DNA of 51,189 nt. It comes from an uncultured Planctomycetia bacterium (GTDB lineage Bacteria; Omnitrophota; Gorgyraeia; Duberdicusellales; 4484-171). The notes under the pieces are model-generated. The model saw only the letters and a program-made list of their open reading frames with translations, made no database searches and was not told where the DNA came from. The stretch is taken from contig CAZHVO010000002.1 in assembly GCA_964536195.1 (NCBI GenBank), forward strand, positions 1 through 51,189. Reading direction: 5' to 3'. Below are positions 22,449 to 25,880 of this stretch, in pieces. Within the stretch, counting starts at the first letter, position 1. Each line of letters opens with the position of its first letter. The position numbers and the translations under genes were made by a program.

Positions 22449-23942
22449 CTAGAACCCATACCAATAGTTAGCTAAAGGTTTGGAGTCTGTAGACTGGTCT
22501 GAAATGATATTTTTAAGGCGGGTATATTCTAAAAATCCCTGGTAACCTAATTCTTTACCAAACCCACTTTGTTTAAATCCCCCATAAGGCAACTCATTGA
22601 AAAACATTCCATAGGTATTAATCCAAATTGTACCTGACGATACCTTTTCGGCTAACTTTTCTGCTTTAGATACATCTTTGCTCCAGATACAAGCTGCTAA
22701 AGCAAAAGAAGAGTTATTAGCAAGGACAATCGCTTCTTGGGGTGAAGAAAATTTGCTTAAAGTGGCTACTGGGCCAAAAATTTCCTCTTGGAATATAGCC
22801 GAATCGGGTTTTGCTCCTTCGAATACTGTCGGTTCAAAAAAGAATCCTTTTTTTAATGCTTCATCTTGAGGGATCCTACCTCCACAGAGTAACCTTAAAC
22901 CCTCTCTCTGAGCTTTATCAACATAAGAAATAACCCTATCCCGTTGGAATCTGGAAGCAAGCGGCCCAATTTGACTTTGAAAATCTAAACAATCCCCTAT
23001 CTTTATCTTCTTAGTTTTTTCAACAAACTGATCACGAAAATTATCATAAATAATCTGATCTATCAATATTCTTGAGGTAGCAGTGCACATCTGGCCTTGA
23101 TTTAAGAATATTGAACATAATGAGCTATTTACCGCTGCTTCTAAGTCAGCATCTTTTAAAATTATACTCGCTGACTTACCACCGAGTTCCATGATTAATT
23201 TTTTAACACTCTTAGTAGAATATTCTAAAATCTTCTTACCAACCGCATTGGAACCGGTAAAAGAAATCATATCTACTAAATCACTAGAACAAATAATTTT
23301 TCCTACTTCCTCTCCCGGACCAGGAATAACATTTATTACACCCTTAGGCACACCTACCTCATCAGCTATCCTGCCTAGCTCTAAAGCAGTTAAAGGCGTT
23401 AAGCTTGAAGGTTTTAGAATAACCGTATTACCAGCAGCAAGGGCCTGAGCCATTTTCCAGGAAGCTATTAGCAACGGATAATTCCAAGGAATAATTAAAC
23501 CTACTACACCTCTAGGCTCTCTTAAAAGATTTGCTTTCACCTTTGCTATCTTTGATTGAATATCTTGAATTTTTCCGGTTAAATATTTCTCTAAATTATT
23601 AGCAAAATATTCAAAAGTTGCTGCTGAGGAAGGTATATCCATAAAAGTTGTCTCTTTAATCGGTTTACCTGAGTTTAAACTCTCAAGCTCGGCTAATTCT
23701 TTAGCCTTGGAGAGAATGGTTTGCGATAATTTAAGAAGGAGATTCTTTCTCTCCAGTAAACTCATATCTTTCCACGGACCTTTATCAAAAGCATTCCGTG
23801 CAGATTCAACTGCCAACTTTGCATCTTTGGCGCTGGCCATACAAGCAACAGCAATAGTCTCACCATTTGAAGGATTAATTATATTCTTCTTATGCTTTGA
23901 ATCTTTAAACTGACCATTTATTAATAAGCCATATTTTTTCAT
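22449..23942 (-). CDS. NAD(P)-dependent aldehyde dehydrogenase
   Basis: Catalytic ELGGKSA and NQGQMCTATSR, with the typical PWNYPL and FTGS motifs. Its start overlaps the stop of the upstream aldolase gene by 4 nt. Confidence 0.9.
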   Translation of the reverse strand: MKKYGLLINGQFKDSKHKKNIINPSNGETIAVACMASAKDAKLAVESARNAFDKGPWKDMSLLERKNLLLKLSQTILSKAKELAELESLNSGKPIKETTFMDIPSSAATFEYFANNLEKYLTGKIQDIQSKIAKVKANLLREPRGVVGLIIPWNYPLLIASWKMAQALAAGNTVILKPSSLTPLTALELGRIADEVGVPKGVINVIPGPGEEVGKIICSSDLVDMISFTGSNAVGKKILEYSTKSVKKLIMELGGKSASIILKDADLEAAVNSSLCSIFLNQGQMCTATSRILIDQIIYDNFRDQFVEKTKKIKIGDCLDFQSQIGPLASRFQRDRVISYVDKAQREGLRLLCGGRIPQDEALKKGFFFEPTVFEGAKPDSAIFQEEIFGPVATLSKFSSPQEAIVLANNSSFALAACIWSKDVSKAEKLAEKVSSGTIWINTYGMFFNELPYGGFKQSGFGKELGYQGFLEYTRLKNIISDQSTDSKPLANYWYGF

Positions 23943-24937
23943 TTAAATTTTACCTGTTTGAATATCTCAAATAATCTACTAAAAGGAACATACCAACGTG
24001 AAAGTTGGCCTAATTGTCCATCTAAATTCATCTTACCTTGAGTAACTGCCACAAACGGATCAAGACTACCCAAGAAAACCTGCTTCCAGATATCGTTTGA
24101 TGCTGAAATAATAAAAGGGGCATCTGAATCGTAATCTAGTTTTACAATTCTTCCCTTTTCAAAATTAAATCTATAAGCTTTATCACTTTCCGTTGAAGTA
24201 ATAGCCAGTTTAACGGTTAAATCTAATTCTTCTCCCTTATTAGCTATAAGCTGATCTTTATTGACTAAATCTACTATTGCCTGAACATGCTCAGGGGAAA
24301 ACATTGGGTAAGCTTTATCAGCCTCTAATTTATTCTTTAACGGTTGGTCTAGCTCATCCAATATATTTTTATCAAAAAGCCTGGCTAAAGCAGCTGTACG
24401 CACTGCCTCTTCCAGAGCTTCAATCAAAGCTAAAGCCTCATTAAAATTATCGGCCATAGCAATCGCACCATGATTCTTAAGCACTACTAAATTATTAACT
24501 TTTAAAGCTTGAATCACTTCATCAAGTTCTGTAACTGTTGGCGTATCTTGGCTTACTACCGGAACTTCTCCTAAATAAAACTTAGTTTCAAAGCTAAGGG
24601 CTTTTAATTTTGAACTAACCGCAAAGTAACCATTGATTAAAGGTGGATGACAATGAACTACTACTTTTGAAGGAAAATTCTTATAGACAAGGCTATGCAA
24701 AGGTAATTCTGAACTTGGATGCTTACCCTCTTGAGAATTTTTAGTACTAAGGCTTACCTTTATAATATCTTCCGGTCTAAGGCTTCCTAAAAAGGTTCCT
24801 CCGGCAGTAATAAGAATACTTTCATCATCTAACTTTGCACTTATATTGCCTGATTTTGCCACTGCCAGGCCTTGAGAATATAGACGCTTGCCTACTCTTA
24901 TAATCTCATTCTTTAAAATGCTCTCTTGATCAGCCAT
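23939..24937 (-). CDS. Class II aldolase/adducin-family domain fused to a C-terminal SCP2-like lipid-binding domain
   Basis: The N-terminal ~190 aa have SGNISAK, LHSLVY, VVHCHPP and KNHGAIA, the Zn-His pattern of FucA/MtnB-like enzymes. The C-terminal ~110 aa (IWKQVFLGSLDPFVAVTQGKMNLDGQLGQLSRW) resemble SCP2. Confidence 0.7.
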   Translation of the reverse strand: MADQESILKNEIIRVGKRLYSQGLAVAKSGNISAKLDDESILITAGGTFLGSLRPEDIIKVSLSTKNSQEGKHPSSELPLHSLVYKNFPSKVVVHCHPPLINGYFAVSSKLKALSFETKFYLGEVPVVSQDTPTVTELDEVIQALKVNNLVVLKNHGAIAMADNFNEALALIEALEEAVRTAALARLFDKNILDELDQPLKNKLEADKAYPMFSPEHVQAIVDLVNKDQLIANKGEELDLTVKLAITSTESDKAYRFNFEKGRIVKLDYDSDAPFIISASNDIWKQVFLGSLDPFVAVTQGKMNLDGQLGQLSRWYVPFSRLFEIFKQVKFK

Positions 24938-25880
24938 AATTCAGCTCTAAATAAATATGTTTAGTAATTAAACTATTAGAAGTTATATCAAATGCCGGAT
25001 AATAAGCTTTCACGCCTTTAGGGGCAAGATGTAACCCCTGATAAACCAAAAGTTCCTTATCTGGCCTTATCTCAATCTTAATATCCTTGCCAGTTTTTGC
25101 ACCAGATAGCGGAGCGCAAAGTACGTAAAAAGGAATTTTAAAATACTTAGCCAATATAGCTATAGGGTATGTACCTACCTTATTAGCAATATCTCCATTT
25201 TCAGCTAAATTATCTGAACCAACTAGGACTTTATTAATTTTTCCCTCACTCATTACCTGAGCAACCATATTATCAGCTATTATTGTAACATCAAATCCGC
25301 TATTCATAAGCTCCCAGGCAGTTAACCGTGAACCTTGTAAATAAGGCCTGGTCTCAGTAACAAAAAAACTTACCGGCTTACCCTCTCTCTTAGCAAATTC
25401 AGCTATTAAAGGCAAGAGGCCGCTAATATTACAATGAGTAAGAATTACATCTCGGCCTTTAAGTAATTTAGAGGCTTGCTTTGCTTGTTTAATCCGGGAA
25501 TTCTTCAACATCTCTAGAAAATCTAATATGGTTTTCTCTAAGGGTAATCCTGATTTATACCAACCCAAAACCATACTAGTTAAATAGTTAAATGAAAGGG
25601 TCGGCCGAGTTGAATTTACTTCATTAGCAATATTAGCTAAGGTTGAATGAAGGTTTTTTTTACGCTTATTCTTTCTAACAACCATAAGAAAGATATACAT
25701 AACTAATAGGACCTGTCCAACTGCCCGGGTCTTCATCTGGGCTATTGCCGAGCAAGCTTGTAAATAATTCTTAGCCTTTATATACTTTTTTTTATGGGGC
25801 AATAAAGTCTCATCAAGGATATGGATAGTATTACCTTTTAATTTAATCGGCCAAAAAAGTGGTGAAAATTTAATTTTCAT
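24930..25880 (-). CDS. MtnA / eIF-2B family sugar-1-phosphate isomerase
   Basis: ILDETLLP, THCN, TETRPYLQGSRLTAWEL, GSDNLAENGDIANKVGTYPIAILAKYFKIPFYV and PAFDIT. Confidence 0.8.
   Translation of the reverse strand: MKIKFSPLFWPIKLKGNTIHILDETLLPHKKKYIKAKNYLQACSAIAQMKTRAVGQVLLVMYIFLMVVRKNKRKKNLHSTLANIANEVNSTRPTLSFNYLTSMVLGWYKSGLPLEKTILDFLEMLKNSRIKQAKQASKLLKGRDVILTHCNISGLLPLIAEFAKREGKPVSFFVTETRPYLQGSRLTAWELMNSGFDVTIIADNMVAQVMSEGKINKVLVGSDNLAENGDIANKVGTYPIAILAKYFKIPFYVLCAPLSGAKTGKDIKIEIRPDKELLVYQGLHLAPKGVKAYYPAFDITSNSLITKHIYLELNYG

What the first reader, a model, noticed from the sequence alone, without database searches (positions are those of the whole stretch)
22449..25880. DHAP-shunt-like module (phosphorylase, MtnA-like isomerase, class II aldolase, aldehyde dehydrogenase) embedded in a PKS operon
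The last three genes of the operon, together with the PNP/UDP-family phosphorylase at 36066-36800, reproduce the enzyme logic of the known 5-deoxyribose / 5'-deoxyadenosine salvage route (the DHAP shunt). In that route a nucleoside is converted to a sugar-1-phosphate, then to a ketose-1-phosphate, then cleaved to DHAP plus an aldehyde that is oxidised.

The conservative reading is in-operon disposal of the 5'-deoxyadenosine made by the B12-radical SAM enzyme. The more interesting reading is that the radical SAM enzyme adds the 5'-deoxyadenosyl radical to the polyketide, as happens in aminofutalosine or adenosylhopane formation. The module would then trim the adduct to DHAP plus a polyketide-CH2-CHO and on to the acid, a net two-carbon extension of the scaffold.
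Basis: inference. Interest (0 to 1): 0.72.

Follow-up and report, generated by a model that had tools for sequence, protein, structure and literature searches.

The report
Nucleoside-trimming module in polyketide operon
Five conserved enzymes that break a SAM-derived nucleoside into a sugar phosphate and an activated acid sit inside a polyketide gene cluster of uncultured Omnitrophota bacteria and also occur alone in soil bacteria, which points to an undescribed variant of a known salvage pathway.

Summary
ORFs 24930-25880, 23939-24937 and 22449-23942 (minus strand) encode an MtnA-like isomerase, a class II aldolase and an aldehyde dehydrogenase. ORF 36066-36800 encodes a PNP-family phosphorylase. 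All sit in one type II PKS operon and keep their catalytic residues.

Three points are new:
- The module has five genes. An acyl-CoA/ACP-type ligase (36797-38431) travels with it in three different gene orders.
- The aldolase is always fused to a genuine SCP2 lipid-binding domain. The isomerase belongs to a distinct subfamily with three deletions relative to canonical MtnA.
- The linkage is not unique. Relatives of the fused aldolase were found in 180 species-representative genomes. Every informative locus among the 80 examined, all Omnitrophota, carries the PKS genes.

A diverged phosphorylase-isomerase-aldolase(SCP2)-ligase operon also stands alone, without PKS or radical SAM genes, in GC-rich soil metagenome contigs.

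The module is therefore an autonomous line: nucleoside to DHAP plus an activated X-CH2-COOH. My best guess (0.4) is that X is lipophilic and the thioester primes the PKS. Trimming of an adenosylated polyketide is weakened (0.12). This is a new variant of a known kind.

The parts
36797..38431 (-). AMP-binding acyl-CoA/ACP-type ligase, the fifth member of the module
   Evidence: Pfam AMP-binding 268 bits plus AMP-binding_C. Best NCBIfam hit is the long-chain-fatty-acid-CoA ligase subfamily PRK06187, 408 bits, below its cut-off of 476. Best PDB hits are 4-coumarate-CoA ligase, feruloyl-CoA synthetase and FadD5; MenE ranks lower. The motif is GWG(M/L)TE, not the WWQTE of acetyl-CoA synthetase (the Acs comparison is from my own knowledge). 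It is adjacent to ALDH or PNP in the other gene orders.
36066..36800 (-). PNP/UDP-family nucleoside phosphorylase-like enzyme
   Evidence: PF01048, 114 bits. Best PDB hit is the hexameric S. solfataricus MTA phosphorylase 1jds, E 2.4e-25. It keeps the equivalents of Gly20, Arg24, Arg87, Ser/Thr90 and Asp204. Arg43 is replaced by Leu/Met and Glu181 by Val. The family has its own RGDGxTxYY motif. It scores below every NCBIfam equivalog cut-off (DeoD, uridine phosphorylase, HpnG, MtnN). It lies directly upstream of the isomerase in 53 of 65 species loci.
24930..25880 (-). MtnA-like sugar-1-phosphate isomerase of a distinct subfamily ('clade X')
   Evidence: PF01008, 182 bits. TIGR00524 scores 191.3, above its cut-off of 185.85. 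The mtnA equivalog TIGR00512 scores 218, below its cut-off of 279. Catalytic Cys (THCN) and Asp (GSDN) are conserved. It has three deletions relative to canonical MtnA representatives: 5 aa after RPT, 7 aa after THCN(I/V)S, and 3 aa after PFYV.
24368..24937 (-). Class II (metal-dependent) aldolase domain of the fusion protein (residues about 1-190)
   Evidence: PF00596, 121.5 bits. Glu77, His95, His97 and His156 are invariant and align with the Glu and three His metal ligands of FucA and DrdA. The AlphaFold model (pLDDT 86.6) superposes on T. thermophilus FucA 2fk5 (TMt 0.83) and on DrdA 6btd (TMt 0.78).
23942..24370 (-). SCP2 (sterol carrier protein 2) lipid-binding domain fused to the aldolase (residues about 190-332)
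   Evidence: Pfam SCP2 scores 22.1 bits for the isolated domain, above the gathering score of 21.3. The AlphaFold model has pLDDT 86.3. Foldseek matches T. thermophilus SCP2 2cx7 (TM 0.74/0.81, E 3e-8), UbiJ-SCP2 and the SCP2 domains of alkylsulfatases. The fusion is conserved in all relatives, including the stand-alone type.
22449..23942 (-). NAD(P)-dependent aldehyde dehydrogenase
   Evidence: PF00171, 542 bits. The ELGGKS Glu and GQMCTA Cys motifs are conserved in 71 relatives. No NCBIfam equivalog cut-off is reached; the top hits are betaine-, aminobutyr- and phenylacetaldehyde dehydrogenases. It follows the aldolase in 69 of 69 loci.
26771..28231 (-). B12-binding radical SAM enzyme (BchE-like). 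Context: the only SAM-using enzyme in the biosynthetic gene set (rlmN, 8 bp downstream of ALDH, also encodes a radical SAM enzyme)
   Evidence: B12-binding plus Radical_SAM domains. Best NCBIfam hit is BchE, 214 bits against a cut-off of 481, then HpnJ. No HpnH or MqnE hit at E<=1e-5. The CxxxCxxC motif is conserved, and it is the most conserved protein of the cluster, 72-92% identity.
31434..34163 (-). Minimal type II PKS. Context: KS 32916-34163, CLF 31677-32912, ACP 31434-31667
   Evidence: The ketoacyl-synt domains and ORFs are. KS carries STGCTAG, HGSST and GHPL. CLF has Lys/Arg in place of the active-site Cys (not Gln) and has lost both His. The ACP DS motif is invariant.
25877..26767 (-). 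Amidohydro_2 protein (LigW/ACMSD-like decarboxylase family). Context gene next to the module
   Evidence: PF04909, 70 bits. Best PDB hits are 5-carboxyvanillate decarboxylase and ACMSD.
38464..38491 (-). Best sigma-70-like promoter match upstream of the ligase gene (consensus match only)
   Evidence: TTGACT-16-TAAAAT, 10 of 12 positions, in the 137-bp gap upstream of 38431.

Best explanation
The module is a self-contained five-enzyme line.

1. The PNP-like enzyme removes the base from a 5'-substituted 5'-deoxyadenosine derived from SAM, giving a sugar-1-phosphate.
2. The MtnA-like isomerase converts this to the ketose-1-phosphate.
3. The class II aldolase cleaves C3-C4 to DHAP plus an aldehyde X-CH2-CHO.
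4. The aldehyde dehydrogenase makes X-CH2-COOH.
5. The ligase activates the acid as a CoA or ACP thioester.

This part is inferred from families, catalytic residues and conserved synteny. I rate it at about 0.8.

My committed guess for this operon is as follows. X is a lipophilic group, held by the SCP2 domain fused to the aldolase. The resulting acid carries two carbons from ribose C5'/C4'. The ligase loads it as the starter of the KS/CLF pair, whose CLF lacks the decarboxylating Gln. The PKS, ketoreductase and cyclases then build an aromatic head on it. The B12-radical SAM enzyme either makes the adenosyl adduct or tailors the product. This second part is inference only.
For: - **Families and catalytic residues are intact**.
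- **The five genes stay together in three gene orders.** They form a contiguous block in two of them (PNP-Iso-Ald-ALDH-Lig at the operon tail; Lig-PNP-Iso-Ald-ALDH at the head). In this window they are split as Lig-PNP at the head and Iso-Ald-ALDH at the tail.
- **Linkage statistics**: the isomerase is adjacent in 70 of 71 loci, ALDH in 69 of 69, and PKS genes are present in 49 of 49 loci with at least 6 kb of upstream sequence. All five contexts selected through CLF also carry the module.
- **The module is autonomous and ends in the ligase.** The stand-alone operon is MarR | CCG - PNP - Iso - Ald(SCP2) - Lig - 106 aa. PNP is present in 47 of 47 loci, the isomerase in 58 of 58 and the ligase in 47 of 47. 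The aldolase and ligase ORFs overlap there.
- **A lipophilic ligand is suggested** by a canonical SCP2 fold and motif, invariant in all lineages; by a ligase of the FadD/4CL/MenE type with Gly at the acetate-gating position; and by a MarR regulator in the stand-alone form.
- **The isomerase subfamily has three deletions next to conserved motifs**. I read these motifs as active-site motifs and the deletions as consistent with a changed substrate; both are my inference, not modelled here.
- **CLF has Lys/Arg instead of Gln**. This is compatible with an externally supplied starter.
- **Precedent** for adenosyl addition followed by base removal by a PNP homologue: HpnH/HpnG and MqnE (PMC13459092).
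Against: - No enzyme of a known adenosylating type (HpnH, MqnE) is present. The radical SAM enzyme is BchE-like and B12-dependent.
- The stand-alone operon has no SAM enzyme nearby. A universal small by-product (5'-deoxyadenosine, MTA) is therefore the more parsimonious substrate.
- An SCP2-like domain can be purely structural. The C-terminal domain of Eis proteins matched weakly; that this domain plays a structural role in Eis is from my own knowledge.
- The ligase family is broad and no equivalog cut-off was reached.
- The 106-109 aa ORF after the stand-alone ligase is not a recognisable carrier protein.
- A non-Gln CLF is not diagnostic of starter choice.
- The stand-alone form lacks ALDH, so how the aldehyde becomes an acid there is unknown.
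- No substrate was or could be tested.
Confidence: 0.4

Rival explanations
1. Conservative reading: an extended DHAP shunt. The module disposes of the small SAM by-products 5'-deoxyadenosine (and perhaps MTA), made in quantity by the BchE-like B12-radical SAM enzyme and by other radical SAM enzymes such as RlmN next door. It returns them as DHAP plus acetate or (methylthio)acetate. The ligase converts the acid to the CoA thioester, possibly feeding the PKS with acetyl units.
For: - The phosphorylase, isomerase and class II aldolase trio is exactly the known salvage logic (PMC6079011; PMC12632272 abstract).
- The best PDB match of the PNP is a broad-specificity MTA phosphorylase.
- The aldolase resembles DrdA, with Glu77 matching the DrdA Glu76 base.
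- A stand-alone operon without PKS or radical SAM genes is abundant in soil metagenome contigs.
- L089 shows a clade-X isomerase beside a PfkB kinase, an Amidohydro_1 deaminase-like protein and a sugar ABC transporter.
- rlmN is immediately downstream.
- There is precedent for 5'-deoxyadenosine salvage feeding a bioactive metabolite (PMC8102628).
Against: - No known DrdA or Ald2 carries an SCP2 domain (my own knowledge; the DrdA, FucA and YgbL chains matched are 200-222 aa). Here the SCP2 domain is invariant.
- The ligase is FadD/4CL-like, not Acs-like, and has Gly at the acetate gate.
- The isomerase falls below the mtnA equivalog cut-offs and has three deletions next to conserved motifs.
- In Omnitrophota the module is never seen apart from the PKS. 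That is odd for a general housekeeping salvage route.
- Iso, Ald and ALDH evolve faster than the PKS genes.
Confidence: 0.3
2. One reading: the B12-radical SAM enzyme adds the 5'-deoxyadenosyl radical to the finished or ACP-bound polyketide. The module then trims the adduct to DHAP plus polyketide-CH2-CHO and on to the acid. The ligase activates that acid for a further step, for example ring closure.
For: - The module, the PKS and the radical SAM gene co-occur strictly in Omnitrophota.
- The radical SAM gene directly follows ALDH in L091.
- The SCP2 domain and the 4CL/MenE-like ligase fit an aromatic acid.
- HpnH/HpnG and MqnE provide precedent.
Against: - The same module, including SCP2 and ligase, works without any PKS or radical SAM gene in another lineage. 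The substrate class therefore cannot in general be a polyketide.
- The radical SAM enzyme is BchE/HpnJ-like. No HpnH or MqnE similarity was listed at E<=1e-5.
- B12 dependence has no role in the known adenosylations (my own knowledge).
Confidence: 0.12
3. Ordinary nucleoside or AMP ribose catabolism. A nucleoside (or the AMP released by the ligase) is converted to ribose-1-phosphate or ribose-1,5-bisphosphate, then to the ribulose phosphate. That is cleaved to DHAP plus glycolaldehyde (or its phosphate), which is oxidised to glycolate. This would be akin to the archaeal pentose bisphosphate routes.
For: - IF-2B family members include ribose-1,5-bisphosphate isomerase. The TIGR00511 hit scores 107-126 bits.
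- The haloarchaeal ribulose-1-phosphate aldolase model hits at 57-61 bits.
- The stand-alone PNP hits AMP nucleosidase models at 80 bits.
Against: - The MtnA models score about twice as high as the R15P isomerase model.
- All of these hits are far below their cut-offs.
- This reading gives no role to the SCP2 domain or to a FadD-type ligase.
- Phosphopentomutase routes normally handle ribose-1-phosphate (my own knowledge).
Confidence: 0.07
4. The 'aldolase' is really an MtnB-like dehydratase or a decarboxylase of the class II aldolase superfamily. The genes would then form a variant, oxygen-independent methionine salvage or another pathway rather than a DHAP shunt.
For: - MtnB models hit at 60-77 bits and the 3-oxo-tetronate-4-phosphate decarboxylase model at 95 bits.
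- The stand-alone operon has no ALDH, and its aldolase and ligase ORFs overlap.
Against: - The best NCBIfam hit is the aldolase model PRK08660, and the best structures are FucA and DrdA types.
- The Glu-18-HxH-58-H spacing matches FucA and DrdA.
- No enolase-phosphatase or acireductone dioxygenase gene is present.
- ALDH directly follows the aldolase in 69 of 69 Omnitrophota loci.
Confidence: 0.03

Closest known systems
DHAP shunt / 5-deoxyribose salvage (MtnP or MtnN+MtnK/DrdK, MtnA/DrdI, Ald2/DrdA)
   Same: The order of chemistry is the same: nucleoside to sugar-1-phosphate to ketose-1-phosphate to DHAP plus aldehyde. The three protein families are the same. The catalytic Cys and Asp of the isomerase and the Glu plus three His of the aldolase are present.
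   Different: - The aldolase is fused to an SCP2 domain.
- The isomerase is a separate subfamily with three deletions and scores below the mtnA equivalog cut-offs.
- An ALDH and a FadD/4CL-type ligase are fixed members.
- In Omnitrophota the module is built into a type II PKS/B12-radical SAM operon.
- The substrate is unknown.
Fluoroacetate pathway of Streptomyces cattleya (5'-FDA phosphorylase, 5-FDRP isomerase, aldolase, fluoroacetaldehyde dehydrogenase)
   Same: It is the only known route that runs the same four steps through to the acid: PNP, MtnA-like isomerase, class II aldolase, aldehyde dehydrogenase. It turns a SAM-derived 5'-substituted deoxyadenosine into X-CH2-COOH. The analogy is noted in PMC6079011; the details are from my own knowledge.
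   Different: No fluorinase or chlorinase-type SAM halogenase domain is present in the operon. A ligase and an SCP2 domain are added. The lineage is anaerobic Omnitrophota.
Adenosylation-then-base-removal systems: HpnH/HpnG (adenosylhopane) and MqnE/MqnB (aminofutalosine)
   Same: SAM's adenosyl group becomes part of a lipophilic or aromatic product, and a PNP-family enzyme removes the base. The net use of ribose carbons as building material would be shared.
   Different: The radical SAM enzyme here is a BchE-like B12 class enzyme. The PNP scores 43-54 bits against HpnG (cut-off 187) and about 25 bits against futalosine hydrolase (cut-off 124.7). Neither known system uses an isomerase and aldolase to cut the ribose.
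7-deoxysedoheptulose formation from 5'-deoxyadenosine in Synechococcus elongatus
   Same: Salvage of a radical SAM by-product feeds a specialised metabolite, which blurs primary and secondary metabolism (PMC8102628).
   Different: That route uses promiscuous housekeeping enzymes and no dedicated operon. There is no aldolase cleavage to an acid and no PKS.
Ligase-primed type II PKS (for example EncN benzoate:ACP ligase in enterocin biosynthesis; my own knowledge, not tested here)
   Same: An ATP-dependent ligase supplies a non-acetate starter acid to a KS/CLF pair.
   Different: There the starter comes from phenylalanine or benzoate metabolism, not from a nucleoside. No sequence relationship was tested.

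Membership tests
DHAP shunt / 5-deoxyribose salvage | Nucleoside phosphorylase, or nucleosidase plus kinase, that yields a 5-deoxy-pentose-1-phosphate | tested here: inconclusive
   A PNP_UDP_1 protein with conserved phosphate-site Gly/Arg/Arg/Ser(Thr) and catalytic Asp is present. 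Its best PDB hit is SsMTAP. It scores below all NCBIfam equivalog cut-offs, and its specificity is unknown.
DHAP shunt / 5-deoxyribose salvage | MtnA/DrdI-type isomerase with catalytic Cys and Asp | tested here: met
   The THCN Cys and G(S/A)D Asp are conserved in all members. TIGR00524 scores above its cut-off.
DHAP shunt / 5-deoxyribose salvage | Class II aldolase with three His metal ligands and a catalytic Glu | tested here: met
   Glu77, His95, His97 and His156 are invariant. The fold matches FucA and DrdA.
DHAP shunt / 5-deoxyribose salvage | Substrates are 5'-deoxyadenosine and/or MTA | not testable with these tools
   This needs enzyme assays.
DHAP shunt / 5-deoxyribose salvage | Compact three-gene unit with a single-domain aldolase of about 200-215 aa | tested here: not met
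   The aldolase is 332 aa with an SCP2 domain. ALDH and a ligase are fixed additional members.
Canonical MtnA (NCBIfam TIGR00512 / PRK05720) | Score at or above the curated cut-off | tested here: not met
   218.4 bits against 279, and 231.6 bits against 271. There are three clade-specific deletions.
Fluorometabolite-type pathway | SAM-dependent halogenase (fluorinase or chlorinase) that makes the 5'-halo-deoxyadenosine | tested here: not met
   No such domain appears among the operon proteins scanned against Pfam.
Fluorometabolite-type pathway | PNP, isomerase, aldolase and aldehyde dehydrogenase in sequence | tested here: met
   All four families are present and syntenic.
HpnH/HpnG or MqnE/MqnB adenosylation systems | Radical SAM enzyme of the HpnH or MqnE family | tested here: not met
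   The NCBIfam hits are BchE, HpnJ and P- or C-methyltransferase-type B12 enzymes. Neither HpnH nor MqnE is listed at E<=1e-5.
HpnH/HpnG or MqnE/MqnB adenosylation systems | HpnG or MqnB-type PNP homologue scoring at its cut-off | tested here: not met
   HpnG scores 43.5-54 bits against a cut-off of 187. Futalosine hydrolase scores 25 bits against 124.7.
Type II PKS minimal system | KS with a Cys-His-His triad and an ACP with the phosphopantetheine Ser | tested here: met
   KS carries STGCTAG, HGSST and GHPL. ACP carries an invariant GVDSTEM.
Type II PKS minimal system | CLF with Gln at the position of the KS active-site Cys | tested here: not met
   Lys in the window and Arg or Lys in relatives.
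SCP2 (PF02036) | Pfam score at or above the gathering threshold, and the SCP2 alpha/beta fold | tested here: met
   22.1 bits against 21.3 for the isolated domain. Foldseek TM 0.72-0.81 to bacterial SCP2. Lipid binding itself was not tested.

The most novel reading that the evidence does not exclude
SAM serves here as a two-carbon (carboxymethyl) donor. A 5'-deoxyadenosyl group is attached to a lipophilic acceptor. Phosphorolysis, isomerisation and retro-aldol cleavage then discard the base and C1'-C3' (as DHAP), leaving acceptor-CH2-CHO. This is oxidised and activated. The result is a general 'adenosylate-and-trim' homologation that supplies an unusual starter (or extension) to an anaerobic type II PKS conserved across Omnitrophota. 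It would also operate as a stand-alone operon in soil bacteria, for example on adenosylated lipids such as adenosylhopane.
Probability: 0.3. Interest if true: 0.85.

Novelty: new variant of a known kind. Interest (0 to 1): 0.6.

Why it matters
If the module only recycles 5'-deoxyadenosine, it would still be, to my knowledge, the first DHAP-shunt variant that:
- carries the aldehyde on to an acyl thioester;
- has an SCP2-fused aldolase and its own isomerase subfamily;
- is genetically locked to a biosynthetic operon.

That would be useful for annotating hundreds of Omnitrophota and soil genomes, where these genes are currently named 'S-methyl-5-thioribose-1-phosphate isomerase' and 'fuculose aldolase'.

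If the 5'-substituent is lipophilic, the module would reveal a new biosynthetic use of SAM as a C2 donor. It would also explain how a phylum of uncultured anaerobic nanobacteria primes or extends an aromatic polyketide.

Either way, it defines a testable five-enzyme unit and a conserved, uncharacterised type II PKS cluster in Omnitrophota.

Tried and rejected
- **Firmicute origin.** The low GC content first suggested a clostrubin-like firmicute cluster. I dropped this when the named homologues proved to be Omnitrophota.
- **Literature.** Searches for an Omnitrophota type II PKS, or for a PKS with an MtnA or aldolase module, found nothing specific. The only related item is antiSMASH 'ladderane' calls in Omnitrophota MAGs.
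- **Riboswitch or other Rfam element near the operon.** None was found in the window or in five related loci.
- **Is the 106-109 aa ORF after the stand-alone ligase a carrier protein?** No PP-binding hit. It shows no similarity to the 91-aa DUF2621-like ORF of the window.
- **Full-length Foldseek search.** It returned only aldolase-domain matches, so the C-terminal domain had to be modelled separately.
- **Context look-ups for metagenome loci.** One cluster look-up timed out.
- **Second copy of salvage genes in the window.** The rest of the window holds none; it carries only housekeeping genes. The whole genome could not be examined.
- **Promoter and terminator scans.** They are at background level and serve only as orientation.
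- **The neighbour-joining tree has no support values**. Treat the grouping of L086-type isomerases with the stand-alone clade as a lead.

Full report
**1. Observation**

- 24930-25880 encodes a 316-aa IF-2B/MtnA-like protein.
- 23939-24937 encodes a 332-aa class II aldolase.
- 22449-23942 encodes a 497-aa aldehyde dehydrogenase.
- 36066-36800 encodes a 244-aa PNP/UDP-family protein.

They belong to one densely packed minus-strand gene string. Gaps or overlaps are at most 31 bp. The order is:
- AMP-binding ligase (36797-38431)
- PNP (36066-36800)
- a 91-aa DUF2621-like ORF (35772-36047)
- ApbA/ketopantoate-reductase-like protein (34777-35772)
- a tandem TIGR04076 protein (34191-34775)
- KS (32916-34163), CLF (31677-32912), ACP (31434-31667)
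- PF04199 cyclase (30618-31415) and SRPBCC cyclase (30161-30631)
- MFS transporter (29023-30168) and SDR ketoreductase (28263-29030)
- B12-radical SAM enzyme (26771-28231)
- Amidohydro_2 protein (25877-26767)
- isomerase, aldolase, ALDH

rlmN follows ALDH after 8 bp, and rsmB follows after 63 bp more. The only strong hairpin is at 20333-20370. The best promoter-like match lies upstream of the ligase. The three genes are therefore the last biosynthetic genes, but probably not the end of the transcript.

**2. The enzymes look functional but are not canonical**

*Isomerase.* It keeps the catalytic Cys (THCN) and Asp (GSDN) of MtnA. It passes only the broad TIGR00524 model. It falls below the mtnA equivalog cut-offs: 218 bits against 279.

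I searched 1.8 billion representative proteins and aligned the nearest ones. The isomerase belongs to a separate subfamily that I call clade X. Clade X shares three deletions next to conserved motifs, relative to canonical MtnA representatives:
- 5 aa after RPT;
- 7 aa after THCN(I/V)S, which removes the GxLATxxxGTAL loop;
- 3 aa after PFYV.

Cys and Asp are invariant throughout.

*Aldolase.* Its N-terminal domain has invariant Glu77, His95, His97 and His156. These align with the FucA/DrdA base and metal ligands. Its AlphaFold model superposes on FucA (TMt 0.83) and on DrdA (TMt 0.78).

Residues about 190-332 form a genuine SCP2 domain.
- Pfam is above the gathering score for the isolated domain.
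- The separate model has pLDDT 86.
- Foldseek gives TM 0.74/0.81 to T. thermophilus SCP2, with further matches to UbiJ-SCP2 and to alkylsulfatase SCP2 domains.

*Phosphorylase.* Its best solved relative is the hexameric MTA phosphorylase of S. solfataricus (E 2e-25). It keeps the phosphate-site Gly/Arg/Arg/Ser and the catalytic Asp. Two other sites differ (Arg43 to Leu, Glu181 to Val), and it has its own RGDGxTxYY motif. It reaches no NCBIfam cut-off (DeoD, uridine phosphorylase, HpnG, MtnN, futalosine hydrolase).

*ALDH.* It keeps the catalytic Glu and Cys.

*Ligase.* It resembles 4-coumarate-CoA ligase, feruloyl-CoA synthetase and FadD5, with MenE lower in the list. It has Gly where acetyl-CoA synthetase has its acetate-gating Trp (the Acs comparison is from my own knowledge).

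*Radical SAM enzyme.* It is BchE/HpnJ-like, and no HpnH or MqnE hit is listed. It is the most conserved protein of the cluster.

*CLF.* It has Lys/Arg, not Gln, at the active-site position.

**3. The linkage is conserved**

All named homologues are Candidatus Omnitrophota. I scanned one genome per species with the aldolase-SCP2 alignment. It found 180 relatives, and the best 80 loci are all Omnitrophota. Some are mislabelled Planctomycetales.

In those loci:
- the isomerase is next to the aldolase in 70 of 71 loci;
- ALDH follows in 69 of 69;
- all 49 loci with at least 6 kb of upstream sequence show PKS genes.

There are three gene orders:
- **Majority order:** KS-CLF-rSAM-ACP-Cyc-Cyc2-(MFS)-KR-..-Amh-PNP-Iso-Ald-ALDH-Lig-rlmN. 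PNP-Iso-Ald occurs in 53 of 65 loci, and the ligase lies downstream in 49 of 64.
- **Window order:** Lig-PNP at the head and Iso-Ald-ALDH at the tail (11 of 65 loci).
- **Third order:** Lig-PNP-Iso-Ald-ALDH at the head, followed by the PKS genes (L086, L088, L091).

Contexts selected through the CLF rather than the aldolase also carry the module, in five of five cases. So PNP, Iso, Ald(SCP2), ALDH and Lig form a five-gene unit that moves as a block.

In the third order, Iso, Ald and ALDH are only 43%, 39% and 47% identical to the window proteins. KS, rSAM and TIGR04076 are 64%, 75% and 77% identical. In a neighbour-joining tree without support values, these isomerases group with the stand-alone clade. 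That hints at module exchange.

**4. The module also exists alone**

One clade-X isomerase lies on a 16.6-kb contig in the order CCG/Fe-S protein - PNP - Iso - Ald - Lig, with no PKS genes (L090). Its aldolase carries the same SCP2 fusion.

A metagenome scan found 407 relatives. The 80 best (62-99% identical to the L090 aldolase, GC 53-66%) all show the operon MarR | CCG - PNP - Iso (about 506 aa) - Ald(SCP2) - Lig - 106 aa. The counts are: isomerase 58 of 58, PNP 47 of 47, ligase 47 of 47, CCG 34 of 37.

Twelve loci have at least 8 kb of upstream and 6 kb of downstream sequence. None contains a homologue of KS, CLF, ACP, KR, the cyclases, the radical SAM enzyme or ALDH.

Named members come from a soil MAG labelled Deltaproteobacteria. 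Some loci have a PPTase and molybdenum aldehyde-oxidase/xanthine-dehydrogenase genes nearby.

Another clade-X isomerase (L089) sits beside a PfkB kinase, an Amidohydro_1 protein and a sugar ABC transporter.

**5. What it most likely does**

The firmly supported part (about 0.8) is inferred from families, residues and synteny. The module is an autonomous line: nucleoside to sugar-1-phosphate to ketose-1-phosphate to DHAP plus X-CH2-CHO, then to X-CH2-COOH and on to a thioester.

The open question is what X is.
- **Evidence for a lipophilic X:** the invariant canonical SCP2 domain, the FadD/4CL-type ligase, the MarR regulator and the altered isomerase.
- **Evidence for a small universal by-product (5'-deoxyadenosine or MTA):** the stand-alone operon has no SAM enzyme, and no HpnH- or MqnE-type radical SAM enzyme is present.

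The module ends in the ligase in both contexts, works without a PKS, and accompanies a CLF that lacks the priming Gln. I therefore favour the acid as starter for the PKS (0.4 overall). Plain salvage comes second (0.3). Ribose or AMP catabolism (0.07) and an MtnB-like non-aldolase chemistry (0.03) are minor rivals.

**6. Comparison with known systems**

The chemistry matches two known routes. One is the DHAP shunt / DrdKIA pathway (PMC6079011; PMC12632272). The other, including the ALDH step, is the S. cattleya fluoroacetate route (analogy noted).

It is not a canonical member of either:
- the isomerase fails the equivalog cut-offs;
- the aldolase architecture differs;
- two extra enzymes are fixed members;
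- no halogenase is present.

HpnH/HpnG and MqnE/MqnB are mechanistic analogies only. Membership features were tested and not met.

I found no paper describing this cluster or the fused aldolase.

**7. Verdict**

The feature is real and strongly conserved. It is a new variant of a known kind. Interest is moderate to high, mainly for four reasons: the SCP2-aldolase fusion, the new isomerase subfamily, the ligase-terminated design, and the occurrence both alone and locked into a PKS operon. The substrate cannot be assigned without assays or whole-genome censuses.

Noticed in passing
window 8416-8490 (-): A c-di-GMP-I riboswitch (GGC variant) hit at 60 bits against a gathering score of 59. A PilZ-domain protein is encoded at 15537-15896.
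   Followed up: no
window 34191-34775 (-): A TIGR04076-family protein present as a tandem duplication with repeated C..FC..CPDGG motifs. It always lies directly upstream of KS, together with an ApbA/ketopantoate-reductase-like gene and an ~87-aa DUF2621-like ORF, in all three gene orders. Its function is unknown.
   Followed up: partly
window 36797-38431 (-), residues about 133-175: The window's ligase carries an insertion of about 42 aa that is absent from 48 relatives.
   Followed up: no
window 21412-22440 (-), and most Omnitrophota loci: rlmN, itself a radical SAM enzyme, sits 8 bp after ALDH here and directly after the cluster in most species. This shows conserved chromosomal placement and possible co-transcription.
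   Followed up: partly
L086 3739-4164; L091 1911-2468; L090 9572-11107; L172 10763-12283: In other lineages the clade-X isomerase is followed by, or fused to, a C-terminal partial copy of the IF-2B domain, giving proteins of about 490-511 aa. The window protein lacks it.
   Followed up: partly
L089 10001-11870: A clade-X isomerase is paired with a 276-aa IF-2B paralogue. Nearby are a PfkB kinase, an Amidohydro_1 protein and a sugar ABC transporter. This is a third, salvage-like context without an aldolase.
   Followed up: no
L086/L088 versus the window: Iso, Ald and ALDH of the head-module cluster type are 39-47% identical to the window proteins, while the PKS genes are 64-77% identical. Their isomerases group with the stand-alone clade in a neighbour-joining tree. 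This may reflect module replacement.
   Followed up: partly
L088 12992-13654; L087 16995-20324: Mobile or foreign insertions lie inside the cluster without loss of the module. L088 has a Y1 transposase between ACP and the cyclase. L087 has five unrelated genes (Fic, Fer4_5 and others) between Amh and PNP.
   Followed up: no
L007, L010, L021 and other loci: Several MAG records that carry the cluster are titled 'uncultured Planctomycetales/Planctomycetia', although their proteins are 64-75% identical to Omnitrophota homologues. This is probably a taxonomic label issue.
   Followed up: no
literature, PMC9902471: antiSMASH 'ladderane' clusters have been reported and found expressed in Omnitrophota MAGs of the Cariaco Basin. 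They may be this KS plus B12-radical SAM cluster. This is my inference only.
   Followed up: no
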